Positions 1 through 64,000 of a stretch of 64,000 nt of DNA are shown piece after piece. Below the pieces are notes generated by a model. That model made no database searches and was not told the origin of the DNA. It worked only from the letters and a program-made list of their open reading frames with translations. Position 1 is the stretch's first letter; each line of letters starts with the position of its first letter. A program made the position numbers and the translations under genes. Source of the stretch: Eledone cirrhosa (lineage: Eukaryota); the NCBI GenBank assembly GCA_964016885.1, contig OZ024742.1, forward strand, positions 167,090,001 to 167,154,000, given 5' to 3'.

Positions 1-3000
1 AGATAATTTCCATCCTTCCAAGGGGAGATAATTTCCAGCCGTCCAAGGGGAGATAATTTCCCGCCAACCAAGGGAAGATAATTTTTAAAAAAATCAGGCG
101 GAGATTGTAAAAAAAATCAGGGGGAGATAATTTGTAAAAAAAAAATCAGGGGGAGATAATTTGTAAAAAAAATCAGGGGGAGATAATTTGTAAAAAAAAA
201 TCAAGGGGAGATAATTTGTACAAAAAATCAGGGGTATATAATTTGTAAAAAAAAATCAGGGGGAGATAATTTGTAAAAAAAAATCAGGGGGAGATAATTT
301 GTAAAAAAAATCAAGGGGAGATAATTTGCAGCCGTCCAAGGGGAGATAATTTTCAGCCGTCCAAGGAGAGGTAATTTCTAGTCGTCCAAGGTGAGATAAT
401 ATCCAGCCGTCCAAGGGGAGATAATTTCCAGCCGTCCAAGGGGAGATAATTTTTAAAAAAAAACAGGCGAAGATAATTTGTAAAAAAAAAATCAGGGGGA
501 GATAATTTGTAAAAAAAAATCAGGGGGAGATAATTTGTAAAAAAAAATCAGGGGGAGGTAATTTGTGAAAAAAAATCAAGGGGAGATAATTTCCAGCCGT
601 CCAAGGGAAGATAATTTCCAGCCCTCCAAGGGGCTATAATTTCCAGCGTCCAAGGGGAGATAATTTCCAGCCAGCGAAGGGGAGATAATTTTTTTTTTTT
701 TAAATCAGGGGGAGATCATTTGTAAAAAAAAATCAGGGGGAGATAATTTCCAGCCGTCCAAGGGGAGATAATTTTCAGCCGTCCAAGGGGAGATAATTTT
801 CAGCCGTCCAAGGGGAGATAATTTCCCGCCAGCCAAGGAAAGATAATATTTAAAAAAATCAGGCGGAGATAATTTGTAAAAAAAAATCAGGGGGAGATAA
901 TTTGTAAAAAAAATCAATTGGAGATAATTTCCAGCCGTCCAAGGGGAGATAATTTTCAGCCGTCCAAGGAGAGGTAATTTCTAGACGTCCAAGGGGAGAT
1001 AATTTCCAGCCGTCCAAGGGGAGATAATTTCCAGCCGTCCAAGGGTAGATAATATCCAGCCGTCCAAGGAGACATATTTTCCAGCTTTCCAAGGAGAGGT
1101 AATTTCTAGCCGTCCAAGGGGAGATAAATTCCAGCCTCCAAGGGGAGATAATTTCCAGCCAGCCAAGGGGAGATAATTTGTAAAAAAATCAGGGGGAGAT
1201 AATTTGTAAAAAAAAATCAGGGGCAGATAATTTGTAAAAAAAATCAGGGGGAGATAATTTGTAAAAAATATCAGGGGGAGATAATTTGTAAAAAAAATCA
1301 AGGGGAGATAATTTCCAGCCGTCCAAGGGGAGATAATTTTCAGCCGTCCAAGGGGAGATAATTTCCCGCCAGCCAAGGGAAGATAATATTTAAAAAATAA
1401 GGCGGAGATAATTTGTAAAAAAAATCAGGGGGAGATAATTTGTAAAAAAATCAGGGGGAGATAATTTGTAAAAAAAAAATCAGGGAGAGATAATTTGTAA
1501 AAAAAATCAGGGGGAGATAATTTGTAAAAAAAAATCAGGGGTAGATAATTTGTAAAAAAAAATCAGGGGGAGATAATTTGTAAAAAAAATCAGGGGGAGA
1601 TAATTTGTAAAAAAAATCAAGGGGAGATAATTTCCAGCCGTCCAAGGGAAGATAATTTCAAGCCCTCCAAGGGGCTATAATTTCCAGTGTCCAAGGGGAG
1701 ATAATTTCCAGCCAGCGAAGGGGAGATAATTTTTTTTTTTAAATCAGTGGGAGATTTGTACAAAAAATCAGGGGGAGATAATTTGTAAAAAAAATCAAAG
1801 GGAGATAATTTCCAGCCGTCCAAAGAGAGATAATTTCTAGCCGTCCAAGGGGAGATAATTTCGAGCCAAGGGGAGATAATTTCCAGCCGTCCAAGGGGAG
1901 ATAATTTTTTAAAAAATCAGGTGGAGATAATTTGTAAAAAAAATCAGGGGGAGATAATTTGTAAAAACAAAATCAAGGGCAGATAATTTCCAGCTGTCCA
2001 AGGGGAGATAATTTCCAGCCGTGCAAGGGGAGATAATTTCCAGCCGTCCAAGGGGAGATAATTTCCATCCTTCCAAGGGGAGATAATTTCCAGCCGTCCA
2101 AGGGGAGATAATTTCCCGCCAGCCAAGGGAAGATAATTTTTTAAAAAATCAGGCGGAGATTGTAAAAAAAATCAGGGGGAGATAATTTGTAAAAAAATCA
2201 GGGGGAGATAATTTGTAAAAAAATCAAGGGGAGATAATTTCCAGCTGTCCAAGGGGAGGTAATATCTAGCCGTCCAAGGGGAGATAATTTCCAGCCGTCC
2301 AAGGGGAGATAATTTCCAGCCGTCCAAGGGTAGATAATATCCAGCCGTCCAAGGAGACATATTTTCCAGCCGTCCAAGGAGAGGTAATTTCTAGCCGTCC
2401 AAGTGGAGATAAATTCCAGCCTCCAAGGGGAGATAATTTCCAGCCAGCCAAGGGGAGATAATTTGTAAAAAATTCAGGGGGAGATAATTTGTAAAAAAAA
2501 TCAGGGGGAGATAATTTGTAAAAAAAAATCAGGGGGAGATAATTTGTAAAAAAAATCAGGGGGAGATAATTTGTAAAAAAAATCAGGGGGAGATAATTAG
2601 TAAAAAAATCAAGGGGAGATAATTTCCAGCCGTCCAAGGGGAGGTAATATCTAGCCGTCCAAGGGGAGATAATTTCCAGCCGTCCAAGGGGAGATAATTT
2701 CCAGCCGTCCAAGGGTAGATAATATCCAGCCGTCCAAGTAGACATATTTTCCAGCCGTCCAAGGAGAGGTAATTTCTAGCCGTCCAAGGGGAGATAAATT
2801 CTAGCCTCCAAGGGGAGATAATTTCCAGCCAGCCAAGGGGAGATAATTTGTAAAAAAATCAGGGGGAGATAATTTGTAAAAAAAATCAGGGGGAGATAAT
2901 TTGTAAAAAAAAATCAGGGGGAGATAATTTGTAAAAAAAATCAGGGGGAGATAATTTGTAAAAAAAAATCAGGGGGAGATAATTTGTAAAAAAAATCAAG

Positions 3001-6356: not shown

Positions 6357-9300
6357 GTAAAATAAATCAGGGGGAGATAATTTGTAAAAAAAAATCAGGG
6401 GGAGATAATTTGTAAAAAAAAATCAGGGGGAGATAATATGTAAAAAAAATCAAGGGGAGATAATTTCCAGCCGTCCAAGGAGAGATAATTTAAAAAAAAA
6501 ATCAGGCGGAGATAATTTGTAAAAAAAAATCAGGGGGAGATAATTTGTAAAAAAAAATCAGGGGGAGATAATTTGTAAAAAAAATCAAGGGGAGATAATT
6601 TCCAGCCGTCCAAGGGGAGATAATTTTCAGCCGTCCAAGGGGAAATAATTTTTTTAAAAAAATCAGGCGGAGATAATTTGTAAAAAAAATCAGGGGGAGA
6701 TAATTTGTAAAAAAAAATCAGGGGGAGATAATTTGTAAAAAAAAAATCAGGGGGAGATAATTTCCAGCCGTCCAAGGTAAGATAATTTCCAGCCCTCCAA
6801 GGGGCTATAATTTCCAGCATCCAAGGGGAGATAATTTCCAGCCGTCCAATGGTAGATAATATCCAGCCGTCCAAGTAGACATTTTCCAGCCGTCCAAGGA
6901 GAGGTAATTTCTAGCCGTCCAAGGGGAGATAAATTCCAGCCTCCAAGGGGAGATAATTTCCAGCCAGCCAAGGGGAGATAATTTGTAAAAAAATCAGGGG
7001 GAGATAATTTGTAAAAAAAATCAGGGGGAGATAATTTGTAAAAAAAATCAGGGGGAGATAATTTGTAAAAAAAAATCAGGGGGAGATAATTTGTAAAAAA
7101 AAATCAGGGGGAGATAATTTGTAAAAAAAATCAAGGGGAGATAATTTCCAGCCGTCCAAGGGGAGATAATTTTCAGCCGTCCAAGGGGAGATAATTTCCA
7201 GCCGTCCAAGGGGAGATAATTTCCATCCTTCCAAGGGGAGATAATTTCCAGCCGTCCAAGGGGAGATAATTTTCAGTCGTCCAAGGGGAGATAATTTCCC
7301 GCCAGCCAAGGGAAGATAATATTTTAAAAAATCAGGCGGAGATAATTTGTAAAAAAAATCAGGGGGAGATAATTTGTAAAAAAATCAGGGGGAGATAATT
7401 TGTAAAAAAAAAATCAGGGGGAGATAATTTGTAAAAAAAATCAGGGGGAGATAATTTGTAAAAAAAAAATCAGGTGTAGATAATTTGTAAAAAAAAATCA
7501 GGGGGAGATAATTTGTAAAAAAAAAATCAGGGGGAGATAATTTGTAAAAAAAATCAGGGGGAGATAATTTGTAAAAAAAAATCAGGGGGAGATAATTTCC
7601 AGCCGTCCAAGGGGAGATAATTTTCAGCCGTCCAAGGGGAGATAATTTCCCGCCAGCCAAGGGAAGATAATATTTAAAAAAATCAGGCGGAGATAATTTG
7701 TAAAAAAAATCAGGGGGAGATAATTTGTAAAAAAAAATCAGGGGGAGATAATTTGTAAAAAAAATCAAGGGGAGATAATTTCCAGCCGTCCAAGGAGAGA
7801 TAATTTTAAAAAAAAATCAGGCGGAGATAATTTGTAAAAAAAAATCAGGGGGAGATAATTTGTAAAAAAAAATCAGGGGGAGATAATTTGTAAAAAAAAT
7901 CAAGGGGAGATAATTTCCAGCCGTCCAAGGGGAGATAATTTTCAGCCGTCCAAGGGGAGATAATTTCCAGCCGTCCAAGGGGAGATAATTTAAAAAAAAA
8001 AATCAGGCGGAGATAATTTGTAAAAAAAATCAAGGGGAGATAATTTGCAACCGTCCAAGGGGACATAATTTTCAGTCGTCCAAGGAGAGGTAATTTCTAG
8101 CCGTCCAAGGGGAGATAATTTCCAGCCGTCCAAGGGGAGATAATTTCCAGCCGTCCAAGGGGAGATAATTTTTTTTTAAAAATCAGGCGGAGATAATTTG
8201 TAAAAAAAAAATCAGGGGGAGATAATTTGTAAAAAAAATCAAGGGGAGATAATTTCCAGCCGTCCAAGGGAAGATAATTTCCAGCCCTCCAAGGGGCTAT
8301 AATTTCCAGCGTCCAAGGGGAGATAATTTCCAGCCAGCGAAGGGGAGATAATTTTTTTAAAAAAATCATTGGGAGATTTGTAAAAAAAATCAGGGAGAGA
8401 TAATTTGTAAAAAAAATCAAGGGGAGATAATTTCCAGCCGTCCAAGGGGAGGTAATATCTAGCCGTCCAAGGGGAGATAATTTCCAGCCGTCCAAGGGGA
8501 GATAATTTCCAGCCGTCCAAGGGTAGATAATATCCAGCCGTCCAAGTAGACATTTTCCAGCCGTCCAAGGAGAGGTAATTTCTAGCCGTCCAAGGGGAGA
8601 TAAATTCCAGCCTCCAAGGGGAGATAATTTCCAGCCAGCCAAGGGGAGATAATTTGTAAAAAAATCAGGGGGAGATAATTTGTAAAAAAATCAGGGGGAG
8701 ATAATTTGTAAAAAAAAATCAGGGGGAGATAATTTGTAAAAAAAAATCAGGGGGAGATAATTTGTAAAAAAAAATCAGGGGGAGATAATTTGTAAAAAAA
8801 ATCAAGGGGAGATAATTTCCAGCCGTCCAAGGGGAGATAATTTCCATCCTTCCAAGGGGAGATAATTTCCAGCCGTCCAAGGGGAGATAATTTCCCGCCA
8901 GCCAAGGGAAGATAATTTTTAAAAAAATCAGGCGGAGATTGTAAAAAAAATCAGGGGGAGATAATTTGTAAAAAAATCAGGGGGAGATAATTTGTAAAAA
9001 AAAAATCAGGGGGAGACAATTTGTAAAAAAAATCAGGGGGAAATAATTTGTAAAAAAAAATCAAGGGGAGATAATTTGTACAAAAAATCAGGGGTATATA
9101 ATTTGTAAAAAAAAATCAGGGGGAGATAATTTGTAAAAAAAAATCAGGGGGAGATAATTTGTAAAAAAAATCAAGGGGAGATAATTTGCAGCCGTCCAAG
9201 GGGAGATAATTTTCAGCCGTCCAAGGAGAGGTAATTTCTAGCCGTCCAAGGTGAGATAATATCCAGCCGTCCAAGGGGAGATAATTTCCAGCCGTCCAAG

Positions 9301-12300
9301 GGGAGATAATTTTTAAAAAAAAACAGGCGAAGATAATTTGTAAAAAAAAAATCAGGGGGAGATAATTTGTAAAAAAAAATCAGGGGGAGATAATTTGTAA
9401 AAAAAAATCAGGGGGAGGTAATTTGTAAAAAAAATCAAGGGGAGATAATTTCCAGCCGTCCAAGGGAAGATAATTTCCAGCCCTCCAAGGGGCTATAATT
9501 TCCAGCGTCCAAGGGGAGATAATTTCCAGCCAGCGAAGGGGAGATAATTGTTTTAAAAAAATCATTGGGAGATTTGTAAAAAAAATCAGGGGGAGATAAT
9601 TAATAAAAAAAATCAAGGGGAGATAATTCCAGCCGTCCAAGGGGAGGTAATATCTAGCCGTCCAAGGGGAGATAATTTCCAGCCGTCCAAGGGGAGATAA
9701 TTTCCAGCCGTTCAAGGGTAGATAATATCCAGCCGTCCAAGGAGACATATTTTCCAGCCGTGCAAGGAGAGGTAATTTCTAGCCGTCCAAGGGGAGATAA
9801 ATTCCAGCCTCCAAGGGGAGATAATTTCCAGCCAGCCAAGGGGAGATAATTTGTAAAAAAATCAGGGGGAGATAATTTGTAAAAAAAGTCAGGGGTAGAT
9901 AATTTGTAAAAAAAAATCAGGGGGAGATAATTTGTAAAAAAAAATCAGGGGGAGATAATTTGTAAAAAAAATCAAGGGGAGATAATTTCCAGCCATCCAA
10001 GGAGAGATAATTTTTAAAAAAAATCAGGCGGAGATAATTTGTAAAAAAAAATCAGGGGGAGATAATTTGTAAAAAAAATCAGGGGGTGATAATTTGTAAA
10101 AAAAATCAAGGGGAGATAATTTCCAGCCGTCCAAGGGGAGATAATTTCCAGCCGTCCAAGGGGACATAAATTTTTTAAAAAAATCAGGCGGAGATAATTT
10201 GTAAAAAAAATCAGGGGGAGATAAATTGTAAAAAAAAATCAGGGGAAGATAATTTGTAAAAAAAATCAGGGGGAGATAATTTCCAGCCGTCCAAGGTAAG
10301 ATAATTTCCAGCCCTCCAAGGGGCTATAATTTCCAGCATCCAAGGGGAGATAATTTCCAGCCGTCCAAGGGTAGATAATATCCAGCCGTCCAAGTAGACA
10401 TATTTTCCAGCCGTCCAAGGAGAGGTAATTTCTAGCCGTCCAAGGGGAGATAAATTCCAGCCTCCAAGGGGAGATAATTTCCAGCCAGCCAAGGGGAGAT
10501 AATTTGTAAAAAAATCAGGGGGAGATAATTTGTAAAAAAAATCAGGGGGAGATAATTTGTAAAAAAAAATCAGGGGGAGATAATTTGTAAAAAAAAATCA
10601 GGGGGAGATAATTTCCAGCCGTCCAAGGGGAGATAATTTTCAGCCGTCCAAGGGTAGATAATATCCAGCCGTCCAAGTAGACATTTTCCAGCCGTCCAAG
10701 GAGAGGTAATTTCTAGCCGTCCAAGGGGAGATAAATTCCAGCCTCCAAGGGGAGATAATTTCCAGCCAGCCAAGGGGAGATAATTTGTAAAAAAATCAGG
10801 GGGAGATAATTTGTAAAAAAAATCAGGGGGAGATAATTTGTAAAAAAAAATCAGGGGGAGATAATTTGTAAAAAAAAATCAGGGGGAGATAATTTGTAAA
10901 AAAAAATCAAGGGGAGATAATTTCCAGCCGTCCAAGGGGAGATAATTTTCAGCCGTCCAAGGGGAGATAATTTCCAGCCGTCCAAGGGGAGATAATTTCC
11001 ATCCTTCCAAGGGGAGATAATTTCCAGCCTTCCAAGGGGAGATAATTTTCAGCCGTCCAAGGGGAGATAATTTCCCGCCAGCCAAGGGAAGATAATATTT
11101 TAAAAAATCAGGCGGAGATAATTTGTAAAAAAAATCAGGGGGAGATAATTTGTAAAAAAATCAGGGGGAGATAATTTGTAAAAAAAAAATCAGGGGGAGA
11201 TAATTTGTAAAAAAAATCAGGGGGAGATAATTTGTAAAAAAAAATCAGGGGTAGATAATTTGTAAAAAAAAATCAGGGGGAGATAATTTGTAAAAAAAAA
11301 ATCAGGGGGAGATAATTTGTAAAAAAAATCAAGGGGAGATAATTTCCAGCCGTCCAAGGAGAGATAATTTTTAAAAAAAATCAGGCGGAGATAATTTGTA
11401 AAAAAAAATCAGGGGGAGATAATTTCCAGCCGTCGAAGGGAAGATAATTTCCAGCCCTCCAAGGGGCTATAATTTCCAGCGTCCAAGGGGAGATAATTTC
11501 CAGCCAGCGAAGGGGAGATAATTTTTTTAAAAAAATCATTGGGAGATTTGTAAAAAAAATAAGGGGGAGATAATTTGTAAAAAAAATCAAGGGGAGATAA
11601 TTTCCAGCCGTCCAAGGGGAGGTAATATCTAGCCGTCCAAGGGGAGATAATTTCCAGCCGTCCAAGGGGAGATAATTTCCAGCCGTCCAAGGGTAGATAA
11701 TATCCAGCCGTCCAAGTAGACATTTTCCAGCCGTCCAAGGAGAGGTAATTTCTAGCCGTCCAAGGGGAGATAAATTCCAGCCTCCAAGGGGAGATAATTT
11801 CCAGCCAGCCAAGGGGAGATAATTTGTAAAAAAATCAGGGGGAGATAATTTGTAAAAAAAATCAGGGGGAGATAATTTGTAAAAAAAAATCAGGGGGAGA
11901 TAATTTGTAAAAAAAAATCAGGGGGAGATAATTTGTAAAAAAAAATCAGGGGGAGATAATTTGTAAAAAAAATCAAGGGGAGATAATTTCCAGCCGTCCA
12001 AGGGGAGATAATTTTCAGCCGTCCAAGGGGAGATAATTTCCAGCCGTCCAAGGGGAGATAATTTCCATCCTTCCAAGGGGAGATAATTTGTAAAAAAAAA
12101 TCAGGGGGAGATAATTTGTAAAAAAAAATCAAGGGGAGATAATTTCCAGCCGTCCAAGGGGAGATAATTTTCAGCCGTCCAAGGGGAGATAATTTCCCGC
12201 CAGCCAAGGGAAGATAATATTTAAAAAAATCAGGCGGAGATAATTTGTAAAAAAAATCAGGGGGAGATAATTTGTAAAAAAATCAGGGGGAGATAATTTG

Positions 12301-15300
12301 TAAAAAAAAAATCAGGGGGAGATAATTTGTAAAAAAAATCAGGAGGAGATAATTTGTAAAAAAAAATCAGGGGTAGATAATTTGTAAAAAAAAATCAGGG
12401 GGAGATAATTTGTAAAAAAAAATCAGGGGGAGATAATTTGTAAAAAAAATCAAGGGGAGATAATTTCCAGCCGTCCAAGGAGAGATAATTTAAAAAAAAA
12501 ATCAGGCGGAGATAATTTGTAAAAAAAAATCAAGGGGAGATAATTTGTAAAAAAAAATCAGGGGGAGATAATTTGTAAAAAAAATCAAGGGGAGATAATT
12601 TCCAGCCGTCCAAGGGAAGATAATTTCCAGCACTCCAAGGGGCTATAATTTCCAGTGTCCAAGGGGAGATAATTTCCAGCCAGCGAAGGGGAGATAATTT
12701 TTTTAAAAAAATCAGGGGGAGATATGTAAAAAAAATCAGAGGGAGATAATTTCTAAAAAAAATCAAAGGGAGATAATTTCCAGCCGTCCAAAGAGAGATA
12801 ATTTCTAGCCGTCCAAGGGGAGATAATTTCCAGCCAAGGGGAGATAATTTCCAGCCGTCCAAAGGGGAGATAATTTTTTAAAAAATCAGGTGGAGATAAT
12901 TTGTAAAAAAAATCAGGGGGAGATAATTTGTAAAAACAAAATCAAGGGCAGATAATTTCCAGCTGTCCAAGGGGAGATAATTTCCAGCCGTGCAAGGGGA
13001 GATAATTTCCAGCCGTCCAAGGGGAGATAATTTCCATCCTTCCAAGGGGAGATAATCTCCAGCCGTCCAAGGGGAGATAATTTCCAGCCAGCCAAGGGAA
13101 GATAATTTTTAAAAAAATCAGGCGGAGATTGTAAAAAAAATCAGGGGGAGATAATTTGTAAAAAAATCAGGGGGAGATAATTTGTAAAAAAAAAATCAGG
13201 GGAGATAATTTGTAAAAAAAAATCAGGGGGAGATAATTTGTAAAAAAAAAATCAGGGGGAGATAATTTGTAAAAAATAATCAGGGGTAGATAATTTGTAA
13301 AAAAAAATCAGGGGGAGATAATTTGTAAAAAAAAATCAGGGGGAGATAATTTGTAAAAAAATCAACGGGAGATAATATGCAGCCGTCCAAGGGGAGATAA
13401 TTTTCAGCCGTCCAAGGAGAGGTAATTTCTAGCCGTCCAAGGGGAGATAATTTCCAGCCGTCCAAGGGGAGATAATTTCAAGCCGTCCAAGGGGAGATAG
13501 TTTTTTTAAAAAAATCAGGCGGAGATAATTTGTAAAAAAAAAATCAGGGGGAGATAATTTGTAAAAAAAAATCAGGGGGAGATAATTTGTAAAAAAAATC
13601 AGGGGGAGATAATTTGTAAAAAAAATCAAGGGGAGATAATTTCCAGCCGTCCAAGGGAAGATAATTTCAAGCTCTCCAAGGGGCTATAATTTCCAGTGTC
13701 CAAGGGGAGATAATTTCCAGCCAGCGAAGGGGAGATATTTTTTTTTTAAAAATCAGGGGGAGATTTGTAAAAAAAATCAGGGGGAGATAATTTGCAAAAA
13801 AAATCAAAGGGAGATAATTTCCAGCCGTCCAAAGAGAGATAATTTCTAGCCGTCCAAGGGGAGATAATTTCGAGCCAAGGGGAGATAATTTCCAGCCGTC
13901 CAAGGGGAGATAATTTTTTAAAAAATCAGGTGGAGATAATTTGTAAAAAAAATCAGGGGGAGATAATTTGTAAAAACAAAATCAAGGGCAGATAATTTCC
14001 AGCTGTCCAAGGGGAGATAATTTCCAGCCGTGCAAGGGGAGATAATTTCCAGCCGTCCAAAGGGAGATAATTTCCATCCTTCCAAGGGGAGATAATTTCC
14101 AGCCGTCCAAGGGGAGATAATTTCCCGCCAGCCAAGAGAAGATAATTTTTTAAAAAATCAGGCGGAGATTGTAAAAAAAATCAGCGGGAGATAATTTGTA
14201 AAAAAATCAGGGGGAGATAATTTGTAAAAAAATCAAGGGGAGATAATTTCCAGCTCTCCAAGGGGAGGTAATATCTAGCCGTCCAAGGGGAGATAATTTC
14301 CAGCCGTCCAAGGGGAGATAATTTCCAGCCGTCCAAGGGTAGATAATATCCAGCCGTCCAAGGAGACATATTTTCCAGCCGTCCAAGGAGAGGTAATTTC
14401 TAGCCGTCCAAGTGGAGATAAATTCCAGCCTCCAAGGGGAGATAATTTCCAGCCAGCCAAGGGGAGATAATTTGTAAAAAAATCAGGGGGAGATAATTTG
14501 TAAAAAAAATCAGGGGGAGATAATTTGTACAAAAAATCAGGGGTAGATAATTTGTAAAAAAAATCAGGGGGAGATAATTTGTAAAAAAAATCAAGGGGAG
14601 ATAATTTGCAGCCGTCCAAGGGGAGATAATTTTCAGCCGTCCAAGGAGAGGTAATTTCTAGCCGTCCAAGGTGAGATAATATCCAGCCGTCCAAGGGGAG
14701 ATAATTTCCAGCCGTCCAAGGGGAGATAATTTTTAAAAAAAAACAGGCGGAGATAATTTGTAAAAAAAAAATCAGGGTGAGATAATTTGTAAATAAAAAT
14801 CAGGGGGAGATAATTTGTAAAAAAAAATCAGGGGGAGGTAATTTATAAAAAAAATCAAGGGGAGATAATTTCCAGCCGTCCAAGGGAAGATAATTTCCAG
14901 CCCTCCAAGGGGCTATAATTTCCAGCGTCCAAGGGGAGATAATTTCCAGCCAGCGAAGGGGAGATAATTTTTTTTTTTTTAAATCAGGGGGACATAATTT
15001 GTAAAAAAAATAAGGGGGAGATAATCTGTAAAAAAAATCAAGGGGAGATAATTTGTAAAAAAATCAGGGGGAGATAATTTGTAAAAAAAAATCAGGGGGA
15101 GATAATTTGTAAAAAAAATCAAGGGGAGATAATTTGTAAAAAAAATCAAGGGGAGATAATTTCCAGCCGTCCAAGGGGAGATAATTTTCAGCCGTCCAAG
15201 GGGAGATAATTTCCCGCCAGCCAAGGGAAGATAATATTTAAAAAAATCAGGCGGAGATAATTTGTAAAAAAAATCAGGGGGAGATAATTTGTAAAAAAAT

Positions 15301-16330
15301 CAGGGGGAGATAATTTGTAAAAAAAAAATCAGGGGGAGATTTGTAAAAAAAATCAGGGGGAGATAATTTGTAAAAAAAAATCAGGGGTAGATAATTTGTA
15401 AAAAAAAATCAGGGGGAGATAATTTGTAAAAAAAAATCAGGGGGAGATAATTTGTAAAAAAAATCAATTGGAGATAATTTCCAGCCGTCCAAGGGGAGAT
15501 AATTTTCAGCCGTCCAAGGAGAGGTAATTTCTAGACGTCCAAGGGGAGATAATTTCCAGCCGTCCAATGGGAGATAATTTCCAGCCGTCCAAGGGGAGAT
15601 AATTTTTAAAAAAAAATCAGGCGGAGATAATTTGTAAAAAAAATCTAGGGGAGATAATTTGCAGCCGTCCAAGGGGAGATAATTTTCAGTCGTCCAAGGA
15701 GAGGTAATTTCTAGCCGTCCAAGGGGAGATAATTTCCAGCCGTCAAAGGGGAGATAATTTCCAGCCGTCCAAGGGGAGATAATTTTTTTAAAAAAATCAG
15801 GCGGAGATAATTTGTAAAAAAAATCAGGGGGAGATAATTTGTAAAAAAAAATCAGGGGGAGATAATTTGTAAAAAAAAATCAGGGGGAGATAATTTGTAA
15901 AAAAAATCAAGGAGAGATAATTTCCAGCCGTCCAAGGGAAGATAATTTCAAGCCCTCCAAGGGGCTATAATTTCCAGTGTCCAAGGGGAGATAATTTCCA
16001 GCCAGCGAAGGGGAGATAATTTTTTTTTTAAAATCAGGGGGAGATTTGTAAAAAAAATCAAGGGGAGATAATTTGTAAAAAAATCAGGGGGAGATAATTT
16101 GTAAAAAAAAAATCAGGGGGAGATAATTTGTAAAAAAAATCAGGGGGAGATAATTTGTAAAAAAAAATCAGGGGTAGATAATTTGTAAAAAAAAATCAGG
16201 GGGAGATAATTTGTAAAAAAAAAATCAGGGGGAGATAATTTGTAAAAAAAATCAAGGGGAGATAATTTCCAGCCGTCCAAGGAGAGATAATTTTTAAAAA
16301 AAATCAGGCGGAGATAATTTGTAAAAAAAA
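6345..16330 (+). repeat. About 10-kb block, copy 1 (copy 2 at about 44450-54435)
   Basis: More than 20 consecutive ORF pairs at exactly offset 38105, from 6530/44635 to 15409/53514. Confidence 0.95.
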
Positions 16331-24420: not shown

Positions 24421-24629
24421 GATAATTTCCAGCCAGCCAAGGGGAGATAATTTGTAAAAAAATCAGGGGGAGATAATTTGTAAAAAAAATCAGGGGGAGA
24501 TAATTTGTAAAAAAAAATCAGGGGGAGATAATTTGTAAAAAAAATCAGGGGGAGATAATTTGTAAAAAAAATCAAGGGGAGATAATTTCCAGCCGTCCAA
24601 GGAGAGATAATTTTAAAAAAAAATCAGGC

Positions 24630-47400: not shown

Positions 47401-50400
47401 CCAAGGGGAGATAATTTTTAAAAAAAAACAGGCGAAGATAATTTGTAAAAAAAAAATCAGGGGGAGATAATTTGTAAAAAAAAATCAGGGGGAGATAATT
47501 TGTAAAAAAAAATCAGGGGGAGGTAATTTGTAAAAAAAATCAAGGGGAGATAATTTCCAGCCGTCCAAGGGAAGATAATTTCCAGCCCTCCAAGGGGCTA
47601 TAATTTCCAGCGTCCAAGGGGAGATAATTTCCAGCCAGCGAAGGGGAGATAATTGTTTTAAAAAAATCATTGGGAGATTTGTAAAAAAAATCAGGGGGAG
47701 ATAATTAATAAAAAAAATCAAGGGGAGATAATTCCAGCCGTCCAAGGGGAGGTAATATCTAGCCGTCCAAGGGGAGATAATTTCCAGCCGTCCAAGGGGA
47801 GATAATTTCCAGCCGTTCAAGGGTAGATAATATCCAGCCGTCCAAGGAGACATATTTTCCAGCCGTGCAAGGAGAGGTAATTTCTAGCCGTCCAAGGGGA
47901 GATAAATTCCAGCCTCCAAGGGGAGATAATTTCCAGCCAGCCAAGGGGAGATAATTTGTAAAAAAATCAGGGGGAGATAATTTGTAAAAAAAGTCAGGGG
48001 TAGATAATTTGTAAAAAAAAATCAGGGGGAGATAATTTGTAAAAAAAAATCAGGGGGAGATAATTTGTAAAAAAAATCAAGGGGAGATAATTTCCAGCCA
48101 TCCAAGGAGAGATAATTTTAAAAAAAAATCAGGCGGAGATAATTTGTAAAAAAAAATCAGGGGGAGATAATTTGTAAAAAAAATCAGGGGGTGATAATTT
48201 GTAAAAAAAATCAAGGGGAGATAATTTCCAGCCGTCCAAGGGGAGATAATTTCCAGCCGTCCAAGGGGACATAAATTTTTTAAAAAAATCAGGCTGAGAT
48301 AATTTGTAAAAAAAATCAGGGGGAGATAAATTGTAAAAAAAAATCAGGGGGAGATAATTTGTAAAAAAAATCAGGGGGAGATAATTTCCAGCCGTCCAAG
48401 GTAAGATAATTTCCAGCCCTCCAAGGGGCTATAATTTCCAGCATCCAAGGGGAGATAATTTCCAGCCGTCCAAGGGTAGATAATATCCAGCCGTCCAAGT
48501 AGACATATTTTCCAGCCGTCCAAGGAGAGGTAATTTCTAGCCGTCCAAGGGGAGATAAATTCCAGCCTCCAAGGGGAGATAATTTCCAGCCAGCCAAGGG
48601 GAGATAATTTGTAAAAAAATCAGGGGGAGATAATTTGTAAAAAAAATCAGGGGGAGATAATTTGTAAAAAAAAATCAGGGGGAGATAATTTGTAAAAAAA
48701 AATCAGGGGGAGATAATTTCCAGCCGTCCAAGGGGAGATAATTTTCAGCCGTCCAAGGGTAGATAATATCCAGCCGTCCAAGTAGACATTTTCCAGCCGT
48801 CCAAGGAGAGGTAATTTCTAGCCGTCCAAGGGGAGATAAATTCCAGCCTCCAAGGGGAGATAATTTCCAGCCAGCCAAGGGGAGATAATTTGTAAAAAAA
48901 TCAGGGGGAGATAATTTGTAAAAAAAATCAGGGGGAGATAATTTGTAAAAAAAAATCAGGGGGAGATAATTTGTAAAAAAAAATCAGGGGGAGATAATTT
49001 GTAAAAAAAAATCAAGGGGAGATAATTTCCAGCCGTCCAAGGGGAGATAATTTTCAGCCGTCCAAGGGGAGATAATTTCCAGCCGTCCAAGGGGAGATAA
49101 TTTCCATCCTTCCAAGGGGAGATAATTTCCAGCCTTCCAAGGGGAGATAATTTTCAGCCGTCCAAGGGGAGATAATTTCCCGCCAGCCAAGGGAAGATAA
49201 TATTTTAAAAAATCAGGCGGAGATAATTTGTAAAAAAAATCAGGGGGAGATAATTTGTAAAAAAATCAGGGGGAGATAATTTGTAAAAAAAAAATCAGGG
49301 GGAGATAATTTGTAAAAAAAATCAGGGGGAGATAATTTGTAAAAAAAAATCAGGGGTAGATAATTTGTAAAAAAAAATCAGGGGGAGATAATTTGTAAAA
49401 AAAAAATCAGGGGGAGATAATTTGTAAAAAAAATCAAGGGGAGATAATTTCCAGCCGTCCAAGGAGAGATAATTTTTAAAAAAAATCAGGCGGAGATAAT
49501 TTGTAAAAAAAAATCAGGGGGAGATAATTTCCAGCCGTCGAAGGGAAGATAATTTCCAGCCCTCCAAGGGGCTATAATTTCCAGCGTCCAAGGGGAGATA
49601 ATTTCCAGCCAGCGAAGGGGAGATAATTTTTTTAAAAAAATCATTGGGAGATTTGTAAAAAAAATCAGGGGGAGATAATTTGTAAAAAAAATCAAGGGGA
49701 GATAATTTCCAGCCGTCCAAGGGGAGGTAATATCTAGCCGTCCAAGGGGAGATAATTTCCAGCCGTCCAAGGGGAGATAATTTCCAGCCGTCCAAGGGTA
49801 GATAATATCCAGCCGTCCAAGTAGACATTTTCCAGCCGTCCAAGGAGAGGTAATTTCTAGCCGTCCAAGGGGAGATAAATTCCAGCCTCCAAGGGGAGAT
49901 AATTTCCAGCCAGCCAAGGGGAGATAATTTGTAAAAAAATCAGGGGGAGATAATTTGTAAAAAAAATCAGGGGGAGATAATTTGTAAAAAAAAATCAGGG
50001 GGAGATAATTTGTAAAAAAAAATCAGGGGGAGATAATTTGTAAAAAAAAATCAGGGGGAGATAATTTGTAAAAAAAATCAAGGGGAGATAATTTCCAGCC
50101 GTCCAAGGGGAGATAATTTTCAGCCGTCCAAGGGGAGATAATTTCCAGCCGTCCAAGGGGAGATAATTTCCATCCTTCCAAGGGGAGATAATTTGTAAAA
50201 AAAAATCAGGGGGAGATAATTTGTAAAAAAAAATCAAGGGGAGATAATTTCCAGCCGTCCAAGGGGAGATAATTTTCAGCCGTCCAAGGGGAGATAATTT
50301 CCCGCCAGCCAAGGGAAGATAATATTTAAAAAAATCAGGCGGAGATAATTTGTAAAAAAAATCAGGGGGAGATAATTTGTAAAAAAATCAGGGGGAGATA

Positions 50401-53400
50401 ATTTGTAAAAAAAAAATCAGGGGGAGATAATTTGTAAAAAAAATCAGGAGGAGATAATTTGTAAAAAAAAATCAGGGGTAGATAATTTGTAAAAAAAAAT
50501 CAGGGGGAGATAATTTGTAAAAAAAAATCAGGGGGAGATAATTTGTAAAAAAAATCAAGGGGAGATAATTTCCAGCCGTCCAAGGAGAGATAATTTAAAA
50601 AAAAAATCAGGCGGAGATAATTTGTAAAAAAAAATCAAGGGGAGATAATTTGTAAAAAAAAATCAGGGGGAGATAATTTGTAAAAAAAATCAAGGGGAGA
50701 TAATTTCCAGCCGTCCAAGGGAAGATAATTTCCAGCACTCCAAGGGGCTATAATTTCCAGTGTCCAAGGGGAGATAATTTCCAGCCAGCGAAGGGGAGAT
50801 AATTTTTTTAAAAAAATCAGGGGGAGATATGTAAAAAAAATCAGAGGGAGATAATTTCTAAAAAAAATCAAAGGGAGATAATTTCCAGCCGTCCAAAGAG
50901 AGATAATTTCTAGCCGTCCAAGGGGAGATAATTTCCAGCCAAGGGGAGATAATTTCCAGCCGTCCAAAGGGGAGATAATTTTTTAAAAAATCAGGTGGAG
51001 ATAATTTGTAAAAAAAATCAGGGGGAGATAATTTGTAAAAACAAAATCAAGGGCAGATAATTTCCAGCTGTCCAAGGGGAGATAATTTCCAGCCGTGCAA
51101 GGGGAGATAATTTCCAGCCGTCCAAGGGGAGATAATTTCCATCCTTCCAAGGGGAGATAATCTCCAGCCGTCCAAGGGGAGATAATTTCCAGCCAGCCAA
51201 GGGAAGATAATTTTTAAAAAAATCAGGCGGAGATTGTAAAAAAAATCAGGGGGAGATAATTTGTAAAAAAATCAGGGGGAGATAATTTGTAAAAAAAAAA
51301 TCAGGGGAGATAATTTGTAAAAAAAAATCAGGGGGAGATAATTTGTAAAAAAAAAATCAGGGGGAGATAATTTGTAAAAAATAATCAGGGGTAGATAATT
51401 TGTAAAAAAAAATCAGGGGGAGATAATTTGTAAAAAAAAATCAGGGGGAGATAATTTGTAAAAAAATCAACGGGAGATAATATGCAGCCGTCCAAGGGGA
51501 GATAATTTTCAGCCGTCCAAGGAGAGGTAATTTCTAGCCGTCCAAGGGGAGATAATTTCCAGCCGTCCAAGGGGAGATAATTTCAAGCCGTCCAAGGGGA
51601 GATAGTTTTTTTAAAAAAATCAGGCGGAGATAATTTGTAAAAAAAAAATCAGGGGGAGATAATTTGTAAAAAAAAATCAGGGGGAGATAATTTGTAAAAA
51701 AAATCAGGGGGAGATAATTTGTAAAAAAAATCAAGGGGAGATAATTTCCAGCCGTCCAAGGGAAGATAATTTCAAGCTCTCCAAGGGGCTATAATTTCCA
51801 GTGTCCAAGGGGAGATAATTTCCAGCCAGCGAAGGGGAGATATTTTTTTTTTAAAAATCAGGGGGAGATTTGTAAAAAAAATCAGGGGGAGATAATTTGC
51901 AAAAAAAATCAAAGGGAGATAATTTCCAGCCGTCCAAAGAGAGATAATTTCTAGCCGTCCAAGGGGAGATAATTTCGAGCCAAGGGGAGATAATTTCCAG
52001 CCGTCCAAGGGGAGATAATTTTTTAAAAAATCAGGTGGAGATAATTTGTAAAAAAAATCAGGGGGAGATAATTTGTAAAAACAAAATCAAGGGCAGATAA
52101 TTTCCAGCTGTCCAAGGGGAGATAATTTCCAGCCGTGCAAGGGGAGATAATTTCCAGCCGTCCAAAGGGAGATAATTTCCATCCTTCCAAGGGGAGATAA
52201 TTTCCAGCCGTCCAAGGGGAGATAATTTCCCGCCAGCCAAGAGAAGATAATTTTTTAAAAAATCAGGCGGAGATTGTAAAAAAAATCAGCGGGAGATAAT
52301 TTGTAAAAAAATCAGGGGGAGATAATTTGTAAAAAAATCAAGGGGAGATAATTTCCAGCTCTCCAAGGGGAGGTAATATCTAGCCGTCCAAGGGGAGATA
52401 ATTTCCAGCCGTCCAAGGGGAGATAATTTCCAGCCGTCCAAGGGTAGATAATATCCAGCCGTCCAAGGAGACATATTTTCCAGCCGTCCAAGGAGAGGTA
52501 ATTTCTAGCCGTCCAAGTGGAGATAAATTCCAGCCTCCAAGGGGAGATAATTTCCAGCCAGCCAAGGGGAGATAATTTGTAAAAAAATCAGGGGGAGATA
52601 ATTTGTAAAAAAAATCAGGGGGAGATAATTTGTACAAAAAATCAGGGGTAGATAATTTGTAAAAAAAATCAGGGGGAGATAATTTGTAAAAAAAATCAAG
52701 GGGAGATAATTTGCAGCCGTCCAAGGGGAGATAATTTTCAGCCGTCCAAGGAGAGGTAATTTCTAGCCGTCCAAGGTGAGATAATTTCCAGCCGTCCAAG
52801 GGGAGATAATTTCCAGCCGTCCAAGGGGAGATAATTTTTTAAAAAAAACAGGCGGAGATAATTTGTAAAAAAAAAATCAGGGTGAGATAATTTGTAAAAA
52901 AAAATCAGGGGGAGATAATTTGTAAAAAAAAATCAGGGGGAGGTAATTTATAAAAAAAATCAAGGGGAGATAATTTCCAGCCGTCCAAGGGAAGATAATT
53001 TCCAGCCCTCCAAGGGGCTATAATTTCCAGCGTCCAAGGGGAGATAATTTCCAGCCAGCGAAGGGGAGATAATTTTTTTTTTTTTAAATCAGGGGGACAT
53101 AATTTGTAAAAAAAATAAGGGGGAGATAATCTGTAAAAAAAATCAAGGGGAGATAATTTGTAAAAAAATCAGGGGGAGATAATTTGTAAAAAAAAATCAG
53201 GGGGAGATAATTTGTAAAAAAAATCAAGGGGAGATAATTTGTAAAAAAAATCAAGGGGAGATAATTTCCAGCCGTCCAAGGGGAGATAATTTTCAGCCGT
53301 CCAAGGGGAGATAATTTCCCGCCAGCCAAGGGAAGATAATATTTAAAAAAATCAGGCGGAGATAATTTGTAAAAAAAATCAGGGGGAGATAATTTGTAAA

Positions 53401-54435
53401 AAAATCAGGGGGAGATAATTTGTAAAAAAAAAATCAGGGGGAGATTTGTAAAAAAAATCAGGGGGAGATAATTTGTAAAAAAAAATCAGGGGTAGATAAT
53501 TTGTAAAAAAAAATCAGGGGGAGATAATTTGTAAAAAAAAATCAGGGGGAGATAATTTGTAAAAAAAATCAATTGGAGATAATTTCCAGCCGTCCAAGGG
53601 GAGATAATTTTCAGCCGTCCAAGGAGAGGTAATTTCTAGACGTCCAAGGGGAGATAATTTCCAGCCGTCCAATGGGAGATAATTTCCAGCCGTCCAAGGG
53701 GAGATAATTTTTAAAAAAAAATCAGGCGGAGATAATTTGTAAAAAAAATCTAGGGGAGATAATTTGCAGCCGTCCAAGGGGAGATAATTTTCAGTCGTCC
53801 AAGGAGAGGTAATTTCTAGCCGTCCAAGGGGAGATAATTTCCAGCCGTCAAAGGGGAGATAATTTCCAGCCGTCCAAGGGGAGATAATTTTTTTAAAAAA
53901 ATCAGGCGGAGATAATTTGTAAAAAAAATCAGGGGGAGATAATTTGTAAAAAAAAATCAGGGGGAGATAATTTGTAAAAAAAAATCAGGGGGAGATAATT
54001 TGTAAAAAAAATCAAGGAGAGATAATTTCCAGCCGTCCAAGGGAAGATAATTTCAAGCCCTCCAAGGGGCTATAATTTCCAGTGTCCAAGGGGAGATAAT
54101 TTCCAGCCAGCGAAGGGGAGATAATTTTTTTTTAAAAATCAGGGGGAGATTTGTAAAAAAAATCAAGGGGAGATAATTTGTAAAAAAATCAGGGGGAGAT
54201 AATTTGTAAAAAAAAAATCAGGGGGAGATAATTTGTAAAAAAAATCAGGGGGAGATAATTTGTAAAAAAAAATCAGGGGTAGATAATTTGTAAAAAAAAA
54301 TCAGGGGGAGATAATTTGTAAAAAAAAAATCAGGGGGAGATAATTTGTAAAAAAAATCAAGGGGAGATAATTTCCAGCCGTCCAAGGAGAGATAATTTTT
54401 AAAAAAAATCAGGCGGAGATAATTTGTAAAAAAAA
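44450..54435 (+). repeat. About 10-kb block, copy 2 (copy 1 at about 6345-16330)
   Basis: Constant offset 38105. Shared rare variants include CAGGTGTAG, CCAGCACTCC, TCAACGGGAG and TCAGCGGGAG. Confidence 0.95.
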
Positions 54436-57400
54436 ATCAGGGGGAGATAATTTGTAAAAAAAATCAAGGGGAGATAATTTCCAGCCGTCCAAGGGAAGAT
54501 AATTTCAAGCCCTCCAAGGGGCTATAATTTCCAGTGTCCAAGGGGAGATAATTTCCAGCCAGCGAAGGGGAGATAATTTTTTTAAAAAAATCAGGGGGAG
54601 ATATGTAAAAAAAATCAGAGGGAGATAATTTCTAAAAAAAATCAAAGGGAGATAATTTCCAGCCGTCCAAAGAGAGATAATTTCTAGCCGTCCAAGGGGA
54701 GATAATTTCCAGCCAAGGGGAGATAATTTCCAGCCGTCCAAAGGGGAGATAATTTTTTAAAAAATCAGGTGGAGATAATTTGTAAAAAAAATCAGGGGGA
54801 GATAATTTGTAAAAACAAAATCAAGGGCAGATAATTTCCAGCTGTCCAAGGGGAGATAATTTCCAGCCGTGCAAGGGGAGATAATTTCCAGCCGTCCAAG
54901 GGGAGATAATTTCCATCCTTCCAAGGGGAGATAATCTCCAGCCGTCCAAGGGGAGATAATTTCCCGCCAGCCAAGGGAAGATAATTTTTAAAAAAATCAG
55001 GCGGAGATTGTAAAAAAAATCAGGGGGAGATAATTTGTAAAAAAATCAGGGGGAGATAATTTGTAAAAAAAAAATCAGGGGAGATAATTTGTAAAAAAAA
55101 ATCAGGGGGAGATAATTTGTAAAAAAAAAATCAGGGGGAGATAATTTGTAAAAAATAATCAGGGGTAGATAATTTGTAAAAAAAAATCAGGGGGAGATAA
55201 TTTGTAAAAAAAAATCAGGGGGAGATAATTTGTAAAAAAATCAAGGGGAGATAATATGCAGCCGTCCAAGGGGAGATAATTTTCAGCCGTCCAAGGAGAG
55301 GTAATTTCTAGCCGTCCAAGGGGAGATAATTTCCAGCCGTCCAAGGGGAGATAATTTCAAGCCGTCCAAGGGGAGATAGTTTTTTTAAAAAAATCAGGCG
55401 GAGATAATTTGTAAAAAAAAATCAGGGGGAGATAATTTGTAAAAAAAAATCAGGGGGAGATAATTTGTAAAAAAAATCAGGGGGAGATAATTTGTAAAAA
55501 AAATCAAGGGGAGATAATTTCCAGCCGTCCAAGGGAAGATAATTTCAAGCCCTCCAAGGGGCTATAATTTCCAGTGTCCAAGGGGAGATAATTTCCAGCC
55601 AGCGAAGGGGAGATATTTTTTTTTTAAAAATCAGGGGGAGATTTGTAAAAAAAATCAGGGGGAGATAATTTGCAAAAAAAATCAAAGGGAGATAATTTCC
55701 AGCCGTCCAAAGAGAGATAATTTCTAGCCGTCCAAGGGGAGATAATTTCGAGCCAAGGGGAGATAATTTCCAGCCGTCCAAGGGGAGATAATTTTTTAAA
55801 AAATCAGGTGGAGATAATTTGTAAAAAAAATCAGGGGGAGATAATTTGTAAAAACAAAATCAAGGGCAGATAATTTCCAGCTGTCCAAGGGGAGATAATT
55901 TCCAGCCGTGCAAGGGGAGATAATTTCCAGCCGTCCAAAGGGAGATAATTTCCATCCTTCCAAGGGGAGATAATTTCCAGCCGTCCAAGGGGAGATAATT
56001 TCCCGCCAGCCAAGAGAAGATAATTTTTTAAAAAATCAGGCGGAGATTGTAAAAAAAATCAGCGGGAGATAATTTGTAAAAAAATCAGGGGGAGATAATT
56101 TGTAAAAAAATCAAGGGGAGATAATTTCCAGCTCTCCAAGGGGAGGTAATATCTAGCCGTCCAAGGGGAGATAATTTCCAGCCGTCCAAGGGGAGATAAT
56201 TTCCAGCCGTCCAAGGGTAGATAATATCCAGCCGTCCAAGGAGACATATTTTCCAGCCGTCCAAGGAGAGGTAATTTCTAGCCGTCCAAGTGGAGATAAA
56301 TTCCAGCCTCCAAGGGGAGATAATTTCCAGCCAGCCAAGGGGAGATAATTTGTAAAAAAATCAGGGGGAGATAATTTGTAAAAAAAATCAGGGGGAGATA
56401 ATTTGTACAAAAAATCAGGGGTAGATAATTTGTAAAAAAAATCAGGGGGAGATAATTTGTAAAAAAAATCAAGGGGAGATAATTTGCAGCCGTCCAAGGG
56501 GAGATAATTTTCAGCCGTCCAAGGAGAGGTAATTTCTAGCCGTCCAAGGTGAGATAATTTCCAGCCGTCCAAGGGGAGATAATTTCCAGCCGTCCAAGGG
56601 GAGATAATTTTTAAAAAAAAACAGGCGGAGATAATTTGTAAAAAAAAAATCAGGGTGAGATAATTTGTAAAAAAAAATCAGGGGGAGATAATTTGTAAAA
56701 AAAAATCAGGGGGAGGTAATTTATAAAAAAAATCAAGGGGAGATAATTTCCAGCCGTCCAAGGGAAGATAATTTCCAGCCCTCCAAGGGGCTATAATTTC
56801 CAGCGTCCAAGGGGAGATAATTTCCAGCCAGCGAAGGGGAGATAATTTTTTTTTTTTTAAATCAGGGGGACATAATTTGTAAAAAAAATAAGGGGGAGAT
56901 AATCTGTAAAAAAAATCAAGGGGAGATAATTTGTAAAAAAATCAGGGGGAGATAATTTGTAAAAAAAAATCAGGGGGAGATAATTTGTAAAAAAAATCAA
57001 GGGGAGATAATTTGTAAAAAAAATCAAGGGGAGATAATTTCCAGCCGTCCAAGGGGAGATAATTTTCAGCCGTCCAAGGGGAGATAATTTCCCGCCAGCC
57101 AAGGGAAGATAATATTTAAAAAAATCAGGCTAGATAATTTGTAAAAAAAATCAGGGGGAGATAATTTGTAAAAAAATCAGGGGGAGATAATTTGTAAAAA
57201 AAAAATCAGGGGGAGATTTGTAAAAAAAATCAGGGGGAGATAATTTGTAAAAAAAAATCAGGGGTAGATAATTTGTAAAAAAAAATCAGTGGGAGATAAT
57301 TTGTAAAAAAAAATCAGGGGGAGATAATTTGTAAAAAAAATCAATTGGAGATAATTTCCAGCCGTCCAAGGGGAGATAATTTTCAGCCGTCCAAGGAGAG

Positions 57401-63700: not shown

Positions 63701-64000
63701 TTGTAAAAAAATCAGGGGGAGATAATTTGTAAAAAAAAAATCAGGGAGAGATAATTTGTAAAAAAAATCAGGGGGAGATAATTTGTAAAAAAAAATCAGG
63801 GGTAGATAATTTGTAAAAAAAAATCAGGGGGAGATAATTTGTAAAAAAAATCAGGGGGAGATAATTTGTAAAAAAAATCAAGGGGAGATAATTTCCAGCC
63901 GTCCAAGGGAAGATAATTTCAAGCCCTCCAAGGGGCTATAATTTCCAGTGTCCAAGGGGAGATAATTTCCAGCCAGCGAAGGGGAGATAATTTTTTTTTT
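57700..64000 (+). repeat. About 6.3-kb block, copy 2 (copy 1 at about 24630-30950)
   Basis: Same offsets as copy 1. Shared rare variants include CCAGCCGCCC, AAAGGTAGAT and GAGATGATTT. Confidence 0.92.
62262..64000 (+). repeat. Direct repeat of window positions 1-1739 (offset 62261)
   Basis: Position 1 aligns to 62262 and position 1700 to 63961. The variant GAGATCATTTG occurs at about 711 and 62972 but not in the paralogues at 4577, 29923 or 41674. Confidence 0.9.

What the first reader, a model, noticed from the sequence alone, without database searches (positions are those of the whole stretch)
1..64000. Two-state (binary) satellite: constant 16-bp core with two alternative tails, interleaved in short runs over more than 64 kb
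Seen: each unit is CARGGGGAGATAATTT plus either GC-rich CCAGCCGTC (A) or GT(A)nT (B). The tails share no obvious homology, yet neither forms long homogeneous tracts; runs stay at about 1-8 units, giving alternating GC-rich and A-tract patches of 100-250 bp. Established: unequal exchange usually homogenises tandem arrays, and minisatellite variant repeats typically differ by point changes rather than a wholly different half. Inference: the core may be a conserved protein-binding site and the A/B alternation may be structural, as in a centromeric, subtelomeric or origin/partition-like array. I do not recognise it as a named family.
Basis: partly seen in the sequence, partly recalled or inferred. 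Interest (0 to 1): 0.75.

Follow-up and report, generated by a model that had tools for sequence, protein, structure and literature searches.

The report
Two-block octopod satellite with fossil ancestors
This window lies in a repeat of roughly 17 million bases, sitting mid-chromosome in what is likely an octopus genome and built of short alternating GC-rich and A-rich blocks; the pattern likely comes from copying one ancestral two-block unit rather than from a function of the shared core, and its likely parent repeats survive at the array edges.

Summary
The two-state array is real: 1,256 A and 1,209 B monomers fill all 64 kb, in runs of 1-12 (mean 5) that are far from random. The core is not constant: it is exact in 58% of monomers and no better conserved than the A tail (p=0.38). 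Switches are inherited, not fresh: 245 of 247 A-to-B junctions carry junction-only marker variants, and 88% of monomers lie in 12-monomer words that recur exactly. A neutral like-with-like exchange simulation reproduces this. The family totals about 17 Mb (range 11-24), mid-chromosome on four giant chromosomes and one small one of a likely octopod, with divergent arms around a ~0.2-Mb island on two. Older relatives line array edges: a core-less GC/AT composite, a 19-bp-core composite, and 25-bp runs with a 300-bp AT spacer. B is likely that spacer collapsed and re-amplified. Best reading: a young compound, probably pericentromeric satellite; centromere function untested. The scan found this family before on other DNA of this genome (e1-10323831, probably e1-10328835), with the same reading. 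No paper searched holds the motifs.

The parts
1..64000 (+). A/B compound satellite, 2,465 monomers; part of a ~2.0-Mb plus-strand block (G000:C3:165.874-167.893 Mb)
1618..1795 (+). Example A4B3 block of 178 bp, the commonest block (50 of 245)
1796..1973 (+). A4B3 block of a second lineage (178 bp); it holds the 21-bp variant with a CGAGC tail (1846-1866), the same tail as the 19-bp ancestral unit
   Evidence: 8 exact copies in the window
651..694 (+). Marked A-to-B junction, class 1: last A with an AGC tail, first B with a T-run then A-tract (38 copies of this motif)
1349..1387 (+). Marked A-to-B junction, class 2: last A with a CCCGCCAGC tail (39 copies of this motif)
6636..17294 (+). Segmental duplicate of 44741-55450 (406 monomers aligned, 22 edits, 3 monomer gaps)
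44741..55450 (+). Second copy of 6636-17294, offset about 38.1 kb
24604..30950 (+). Segmental duplicate of 57681-64000, 99.3% identical
   Evidence: blastn
1..2598 (+). Segment repeated at 3867-6465 (99.8%) and 29213-31808 (99.6%)
   Evidence: blastn

Best explanation
This is a young compound satellite, probably pericentromeric, whose real unit is an A-run plus a B-run; it likely grew by kilobase-scale unequal exchange that copies inherited junctions, while slippage within like runs likely changes run lengths, and B is likely a collapsed, re-amplified remnant of an AT-rich spacer. Steps: (1) shown: a core-less composite of palindromic GC repeats and AT microsatellite exists at several loci. 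(2) Shown as a structure, order inferred: a version carrying runs of a 19-bp G-rich unit. (3) Shown: the ~300-bp spacer of the 25-bp A' arrays is the 3' part of that ~870-bp spacer, with a ~380-bp deletion starting at the core's end. (4) Inferred: a further deletion shrank the spacer to T(n)A(n), giving the first B, which was tandemly copied and gained a G. (5) Shown: today's array is a mosaic of 2-11 kb duplicates with marked junctions. (6) Inferred: runs are short because the seed was short and the array is young, not because length is policed. (7) Inferred and untested: it forms heterochromatin beside the centromere.
For: Junction markers: last-A AGC-type tail in 160 of 247 vs 6 of 1,006 elsewhere; first-B without GTA in 192 of 246 vs 20 of 962; only 2 of 247 junctions unmarked. 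The same junction classes occur on C1, C2, C4 and unplaced contigs. 88% of monomers lie in recurring 12-monomer words vs 0 in 20 shuffles. Seven duplicate pairs (28,281 bp aligned) differ by 62 edits and 8 monomer gaps, 6 of them inside B runs. Shared 120-mers with the window fall from 0.90-1.0 (adjacent) to 0.42-0.50 (0.7-0.8 Mb away) and 0.004-0.23 (other contigs). A toy simulation from an A5B5 seed with like-with-like exchange gives A fraction ~0.5, mean run ~5, marked junctions 0.99 and almost no singles; free switching gives 0.66-0.91 marked. Ancestral layers abut the arrays on C1, C3 and C21. Spacer alignment: 262 of 281 and 274 of 295 aligned bases identical. Shortened spacers of 217, 126 and 102 bp exist. 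Spacer and first B both start right after the core, on the same side of the A run.
Against: The B-from-spacer step rests on position and low-complexity T/A runs; no spacer between about 100 and 11 bp was seen. Spacers end in TTAGGGG in 58 of 61 cases and in TCAGGGG, like B, in only 3. The simulation reached variance 1.0-4.3, below the observed ~5.8, and its rates and seed are assumptions. A4B3 (about 178 bp) is the top or joint-top block in 4 of 6 samples, tied at second rank in one and second in one, and 170-190 bp blocks exceed permutation in 5 of 6, which could mean selection. Across the family's history the core persists while tails change five times. Direction between layers is inferred from divergence and edge position, not from outgroup species.
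Confidence: 0.72

Rival explanations
1. The array is the functional CENP-A centromere DNA (or its required flank), and the GC/AT alternation is selected because ~180-bp A4B3 blocks position nucleosomes.
For: Arrays lie at 0.44-0.63 of chromosome length on five chromosomes. A4B3 is the modal block in several lineages, and 170-190 bp blocks are 24% vs 12% permuted in the window. A fraction stays 0.45-0.55 in all six samples. All four layers alternate GC-rich and AT-rich patches.
Against: No spectral peak at 175-190 bp (p=0.12 against shuffled runs). The excess is weak or absent in the B-then-A phase on C1 and C2, and blocks are copies of few lineages. Three rare-variant probes gave 67 hits on C1-C4 and 0 on C5-C122, so most chromosomes carry little of it. 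An unchecked AI note puts another family on 12 of 27 chromosomes (e1-10311123).
Confidence: 0.17
2. The shared core is a binding box for a protein (it contains AGATAA, a GATA-type motif, recalled) and is kept by selection while tails are replaced, as for the Meloidogyne 19-bp box.
For: GGGGAGATAAT is shared by two 19-bp, one 21-bp, two 25-bp and one 27-bp unit types. Core positions 11, 12 and 16 are nearly invariant; rare changes lean slightly away from the core (p=0.09).
Against: Core vs tail identity p=0.38; tail positions 19 and 24 are equally invariant; 16% of monomers have lost AGATAA and such variants were amplified. The root composite has no core at all. The A tail holds internal near-repeats that favour slippage there (seen in the sequence).
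Confidence: 0.08
3. A and B switch continually by crossover or conversion within the shared core, as in minisatellite variant-repeat shuffling.
For: Half-marked junctions exist (85 and 52 of 247), so crossovers in or near the core do occur; 2 of 8 gaps span both types.
Against: Only 2 of 247 junctions are unmarked; single B runs are absent from the window's inner runs; the free-switch simulation loses markers and makes 5-28% singles.
Confidence: 0.03

Closest known systems
Meloidogyne box-containing satellites: Box 1 (PMC3694981, abstract and section 13 read) and the 19-bp box (PMC8097292, 12 passages read)
   Same: Different repeat bodies share one short motif, are mixed in one array, and switch at the motif.
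   Different: There the box stays conserved among satellites 32-64% identical and the 19-bp box is CenH3-associated in holocentric short arrays. Here the core mutates like the tail, units are 25-28 bp, arrays are megabases at single sites, and junctions are inherited.
Satellite-state centromeres with heterogeneous higher-order repeats and ditypic/polytypic genomes (Darwin Tree of Life atlas, 10.64898/2026.09.17.752431; section 6 and passages read)
   Same: Megabase arrays, non-periodic duplicated blocks, within-chromosome similarity above between-chromosome, sub-nucleosomal monomers (32 of 263 families), several families sharing a region.
Drosophila dodeca (11/12-mer) and interspersed 10-mer satellites (PMC5844345, passages read)
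   Same: Short-unit centromere-adjacent satellites with two unit types mixed; centromeric status disputed.
   Different: Their variants differ by one base or a 5-mer, not by a tail of different origin.
Cichlid centromeres with alternately oriented satellite blocks (10.64898/2026.06.30.735501, abstract only)
   Same: Oppositely oriented satellite blocks around an interval of about 200 kb.
   Different: There four blocks are split by an inverted pair of ~15-kb elements with a methylation dip between; no such elements were looked for here.
Layered primate alpha satellite; bovine 1.706 satellite (both recalled, not read)
   Same: Older layers at array edges; blocks of two related 23-bp unit types (bovine).
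   Different: Alpha layers differ by point divergence of one monomer; the bovine higher-order unit is fixed in length.

Membership tests
Satellite DNA with heterogeneous higher-order repeats | Head-to-tail array over 100 kb | tested here: met
   ~2.0-Mb block on C3; ~17 Mb in all
Satellite DNA with heterogeneous higher-order repeats | Multi-monomer blocks duplicated without a fixed period | tested here: met
   88% in recurring 12-monomer words; many offsets from 3.8 to 62 kb
Satellite DNA with heterogeneous higher-order repeats | Local similarity exceeds between-chromosome similarity | tested here: met
   exception: the old edge at C3:165.88 Mb shares only 0.03
Regimented (human alpha-type) HOR | One fixed n-mer repeated periodically | tested here: not met
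   block length 259 +/- 96 bp; 74 and 90 distinct A and B run words
Centromeric satellite | One array region on every chromosome | tested here: not met
   found on C1-C4 and C21; 0 of 67 chromosome-level probe hits on C5-C122, although these probes missed the >=165-kb C21 array; C1 has two sites 27 Mb apart
Centromeric satellite | CENP-A occupancy, methylation dip or primary constriction | not testable with these tools
   no chromatin or cytology data; molluscs have CENP-A (PMC12210499 passages)
Centromeric satellite | Nucleosome-scale periodicity | tested here: inconclusive
   A4B3 178-bp mode but no spectral peak; pseudo-replicated
Conserved-box satellites (Meloidogyne type) | Box better conserved than the rest of the monomer | tested here: not met
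   0.951 vs 0.931, p=0.38
Conserved-box satellites (Meloidogyne type) | Junctions between unit types fall at the box | tested here: met
   B and both older spacers begin at the core's 3' end
Conserved-box satellites (Meloidogyne type) | Box conserved across species | not tested
   one search lists a second organism label at share 0.29; which part is shared was not determined
Subtelomeric/telomeric repeat | Position at chromosome ends or TTAGGG content | tested here: not met
   arrays at 0.44-0.63; none in 20 end probes; only the root composite sits beside interstitial TTAGGG
Described satellite in Dfam/Repbase/nt | Sequence match to a named entry | not testable with these tools
   databases not available; 0 papers hold any of four motif strings

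The most novel reading that the evidence does not exclude
An architecture, not a sequence, is conserved at octopod centromeres: alternating GC-rich and AT-rich patches survived complete replacement of both patch sequences over four stages, shrank from about 1 kb to a 178-bp nucleosome-sized mode, and now form megabase arms pointing away from a ~0.2-Mb island on two giant chromosomes that would be the CENP-A core.
Probability: 0.15. Interest if true: 0.75.

Novelty: new variant of a known kind. Interest (0 to 1): 0.4.

Why it matters
My searches found no paper describing cephalopod centromeric DNA. This family gives concrete candidate intervals on four giant chromosomes and probes for FISH or CENP-A mapping. 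It also preserves a rarely visible stepwise record of how a dispersed composite repeat becomes a multi-megabase satellite, and shows that unequal exchange can maintain a two-state array without selection. The processes themselves are ordinary, function is untested, and this scan has already noted the family on other DNA.

Tried and rejected
Coding role: only incidental stop-to-stop frames of 100-197 aa on the minus strand, repeated with the duplications. Rfam on four relative loci: 0 matches; the window itself was not scanned. Metagenome contigs: 0 matches. Assembly artefact: unlikely, since A-tract lengths agree between duplicates (16 differences in 28 kb) and four runs of one study hold 0.50-0.69 of the words, though these may be the source. 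No RNA holder listed. 'Only on the giant chromosomes' was rejected once C21 turned up. 'Pure A ancestor' was rejected: A' arrays are themselves compound. B from the neighbouring 12-bp A-rich satellite: considered; the C3 array edge joins the 9-bp satellite abruptly with no intermediate, and the C2 edge with the 12-mer was not captured, so it is not excluded but less well placed than the spacer. A-tract bending: the 27-28 bp period is off helical phase (arithmetic only, not modelled). Paper searches for a two-subunit GC/AT satellite: 0 with all six terms; one search gave the Meloidogyne lead. Look-ups of earlier findings by sequence and near place gave nothing.

Full report
OBSERVATION. The window is one unbroken array. 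Dynamic-programming decomposition gives 2,465 units, 1,256 A (CAAGGGGAGATAATTT-CCAGCCGTC) and 1,209 B (CAGGGGGAGATAATTT-GT(A)nT). There are 494 runs against 1,232 +/- 24 when labels are shuffled; means are 5.1 and 4.9, variances 6.2 and 5.3 against about 20 for geometric runs.

THE CORE. In 2,992 pooled 25-bp A monomers (last-in-run monomers, indel variants and A'-adjacent units left out), per-site identity is 0.951 in the core and 0.931 in the tail (p=0.38). Rare new changes are 40 core and 34 tail (p=0.09 against length). In B, core and tail are both about 0.945 (my average's columns). So the core is shared by descent and is not demonstrably under extra constraint, though a weak trend is not excluded.

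WHY TWO STATES PERSIST. Junctions have their own monomers. An AGC-type tail marks the last A in 160 of 247 runs but only 6 of 1,006 other A units. A T-run-plus-A-tract tail marks the first B in 192 of 246 runs but only 20 of 962 others. Only 2 of 247 A-to-B junctions have neither. The same classes recur on C1, C2, C4 and two unplaced contigs. 88% of monomers lie in 12-monomer words that recur exactly, against none in shuffles, at many offsets. Seven duplicate pairs that I chose from those offsets differ by 62 edits and 8 monomer gaps in 28,281 bp. Random monomers differ by 3.1-3.5 edits, so two blocks are separated by only a few gain/loss events (inference). A toy forward simulation from an A5B5 seed, run to that divergence (6 replicates per setting), keeps A at ~50%, mean run ~5 and 99% marked junctions when exchange is like-with-like, and loses markers when switching is free. 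Its variance (1.0-4.3) stays below the observed value, and its rates are assumed. Unequal exchange therefore maintains, rather than erases, a compound unit.

GENOME CONTEXT. The window is G000:C3:167.09-167.15 Mb in a 3.0-Gb genome with four chromosomes of 379-443 Mb and others of 135 Mb or less and TTAGGG telomeres. Molluscan haemocyanin domains occur 39 times, in runs of seven per gene. Seven units per subunit and the COX1 sequence point to an octopod; that link is recalled, not a database hit. An exact A-dimer occurs 54,774 times; at 2.3-5.0 per kb in 18 sampled stretches this gives about 17 Mb (11-24). Probed extents: C1 251.19-252.02 (-) and 279.15-279.3 (+); C2 245.59-248.25 (-) and 248.51-251.1 (+); C3 162.75-165.64 (-), 165.874-167.893 (+) and 168.78-169.08 (-); C4 205.5-206.4 (-); C21 17.55-17.716 (+); and unplaced contigs. 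These come from sparse probes, and other repeats interrupt them (C3:163.3, C2:250.9). On C2 and C3 the two large blocks point away from each other across a non-A/B island of about 0.2 Mb. Three rare-variant probes gave 67 hits on C1-C4 and none on C5-C122, but they missed C21, so other small arrays may exist. A fraction is 0.45-0.55 in six samples; the longest runs are A18 and B16. Sequence sharing with the window decays with distance.

ANCESTRY. Four layers were found. (i) A core-less composite of palindromic GC repeats and AT microsatellite, 74-94% identical, at loci on C2, C3, C4, C6, C8, C13 and C14 (40 of 654 candidates scored); five loci were read, two beside interstitial TTAGGG. (ii) The same composite with runs of a 19-bp G-rich unit (C2:192.18; C3:165.860). 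(iii) Runs of 4-48 A' units (tail CCAGCCGGC, mean 17) with a ~300-bp AT spacer, abutting A/B arrays on C1, C3 and C21, with small copies at C3:179.47 and C25:17.48. Its spacer is the 3' part of the ~870-bp layer-ii spacer, 93% identical over aligned bases, after a ~380-bp deletion starting at the core's end. (iv) A/B. On C3 the order ii, iii, iv is laid out along 14 kb at the array edge. B most likely arose by a further collapse of the spacer: same breakpoint, same side of the A run, a T-run then A-run, and spacers of 217, 126 and 102 bp show such shrinkage. Against this, no closer intermediate was seen and most spacers end differently from B. Of 16 family loci on 10 chromosomes, 15 lie at 0.40-0.63 of the length (window chosen after the fact), which fits an old centromere-region lineage.

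STRUCTURAL ROLE. A4B3 (178 bp) is the commonest block in the window (50 of 245) and in three other samples, from at least two or three lineages; 170-190 bp blocks exceed permutation in 5 of 6 samples. But blocks are copies, the reverse pairing is weak, and the spectrum has no peak at 175-190 bp (p=0.12). An A4B3-like ancestor explains the mode as well as selection does.

COMPARISON. It works like a heterogeneous-HOR satellite (atlas 10.64898/2026.09.17.752431, section 6 and passages read; its bioRxiv supplement, which lists species and families, was closed and could hold this family). It resembles Meloidogyne box satellites in switching at a shared motif (PMC3694981; PMC8097292) but fails their defining test of box conservation. 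Dodeca and interspersed 10-mers (PMC5844345) and cichlid inverted blocks (abstract) are partial parallels. No paper held four motif strings; searches on cephalopod satellites and centromeres listed none that describes one (listings; PMC12682272 has no 'satellite'). Dfam, Repbase and nt could not be searched.

EARLIER NOTES. e1-10323831 describes this family on another piece of this genome with the same reading (seen after my analysis). e1-10328835 suggested edge layers and a parent beside telomere-type DNA; I had seen the C1 layer before reading it, and then confirmed layers on three chromosomes and the TTAGGG-adjacent root. These are unchecked AI notes, not independent support.

VERDICT. A real, apparently undescribed compound satellite with a well-preserved ancestry. 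The two-state pattern is explained by ordinary repeat dynamics (0.72). A selected centromeric architecture remains possible (about 0.15). Interest 0.4.

Noticed in passing
G000:C3:167.893-168.7 Mb (L078-L080, L023, L024, L128, L146); C2:245.4-245.585 Mb (L055, L081-L085); C3:162.65 and 163.3 Mb (L127, L177): Two very AT-rich short satellites, a 9-bp unit (AAAATTCCT) and a ~12-bp unit (ATCCATT plus a variable A-run), border the 3' ends of A/B blocks on C2 and C3.
   Followed up: partly
L054 (C2:245.0 Mb) and L068 (C1:280.0 Mb): A ~225-bp GC-rich satellite lies outside the 3' end of A/B arrays on two chromosomes, beyond a short AT-rich satellite; the shared order suggests exchange of whole segments between chromosomes. 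No Rfam match.
   Followed up: partly
G000:C1:251.19-252.2 and 279.15-279.3 Mb: The two C1 arrays are divergent but 27 Mb apart, and the first starts at a 200-N gap (L001); an inversion or a scaffolding error could have split one region.
   Followed up: no
L120 (C25:17.477-17.480 Mb): A short A' run turns head-to-tail into inverted arrays of a 21-bp and then a 19-bp unit with the same core and new tails.
   Followed up: partly
L115:37-430; L159-L163: The root composite multimerises CCGGAAAT and TGCGCATGCGC motifs, which resemble ETS and NRF1 sites (recalled); with the GATA-like core it looks like stacked promoter motifs, untested.
   Followed up: no
L118 (C3:179.47 Mb), L067 (C1:279.5 Mb): A single A' run plus spacer start runs into a ~20-bp satellite related to the spacer's 5' part and to the repeat at C1:279.5 Mb.
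   Followed up: no
G000 C1-C4 vs C5 onward: Strongly bimodal karyotype: four chromosomes of 379-443 Mb, the rest 135 Mb or less; the large A/B arrays are on the four giants.
   Followed up: partly
G000:C2:345.14, 115.16-115.18, 206.20, 163.79 Mb: Nuclear copies of mitochondrial COX1.
   Followed up: no
G000:C1:173.75-173.91 Mb; C26:21.93-22.02 Mb; C27: At least five complete seven-unit haemocyanin genes, three tandem on C1 and an inverted pair on C26.
   Followed up: no
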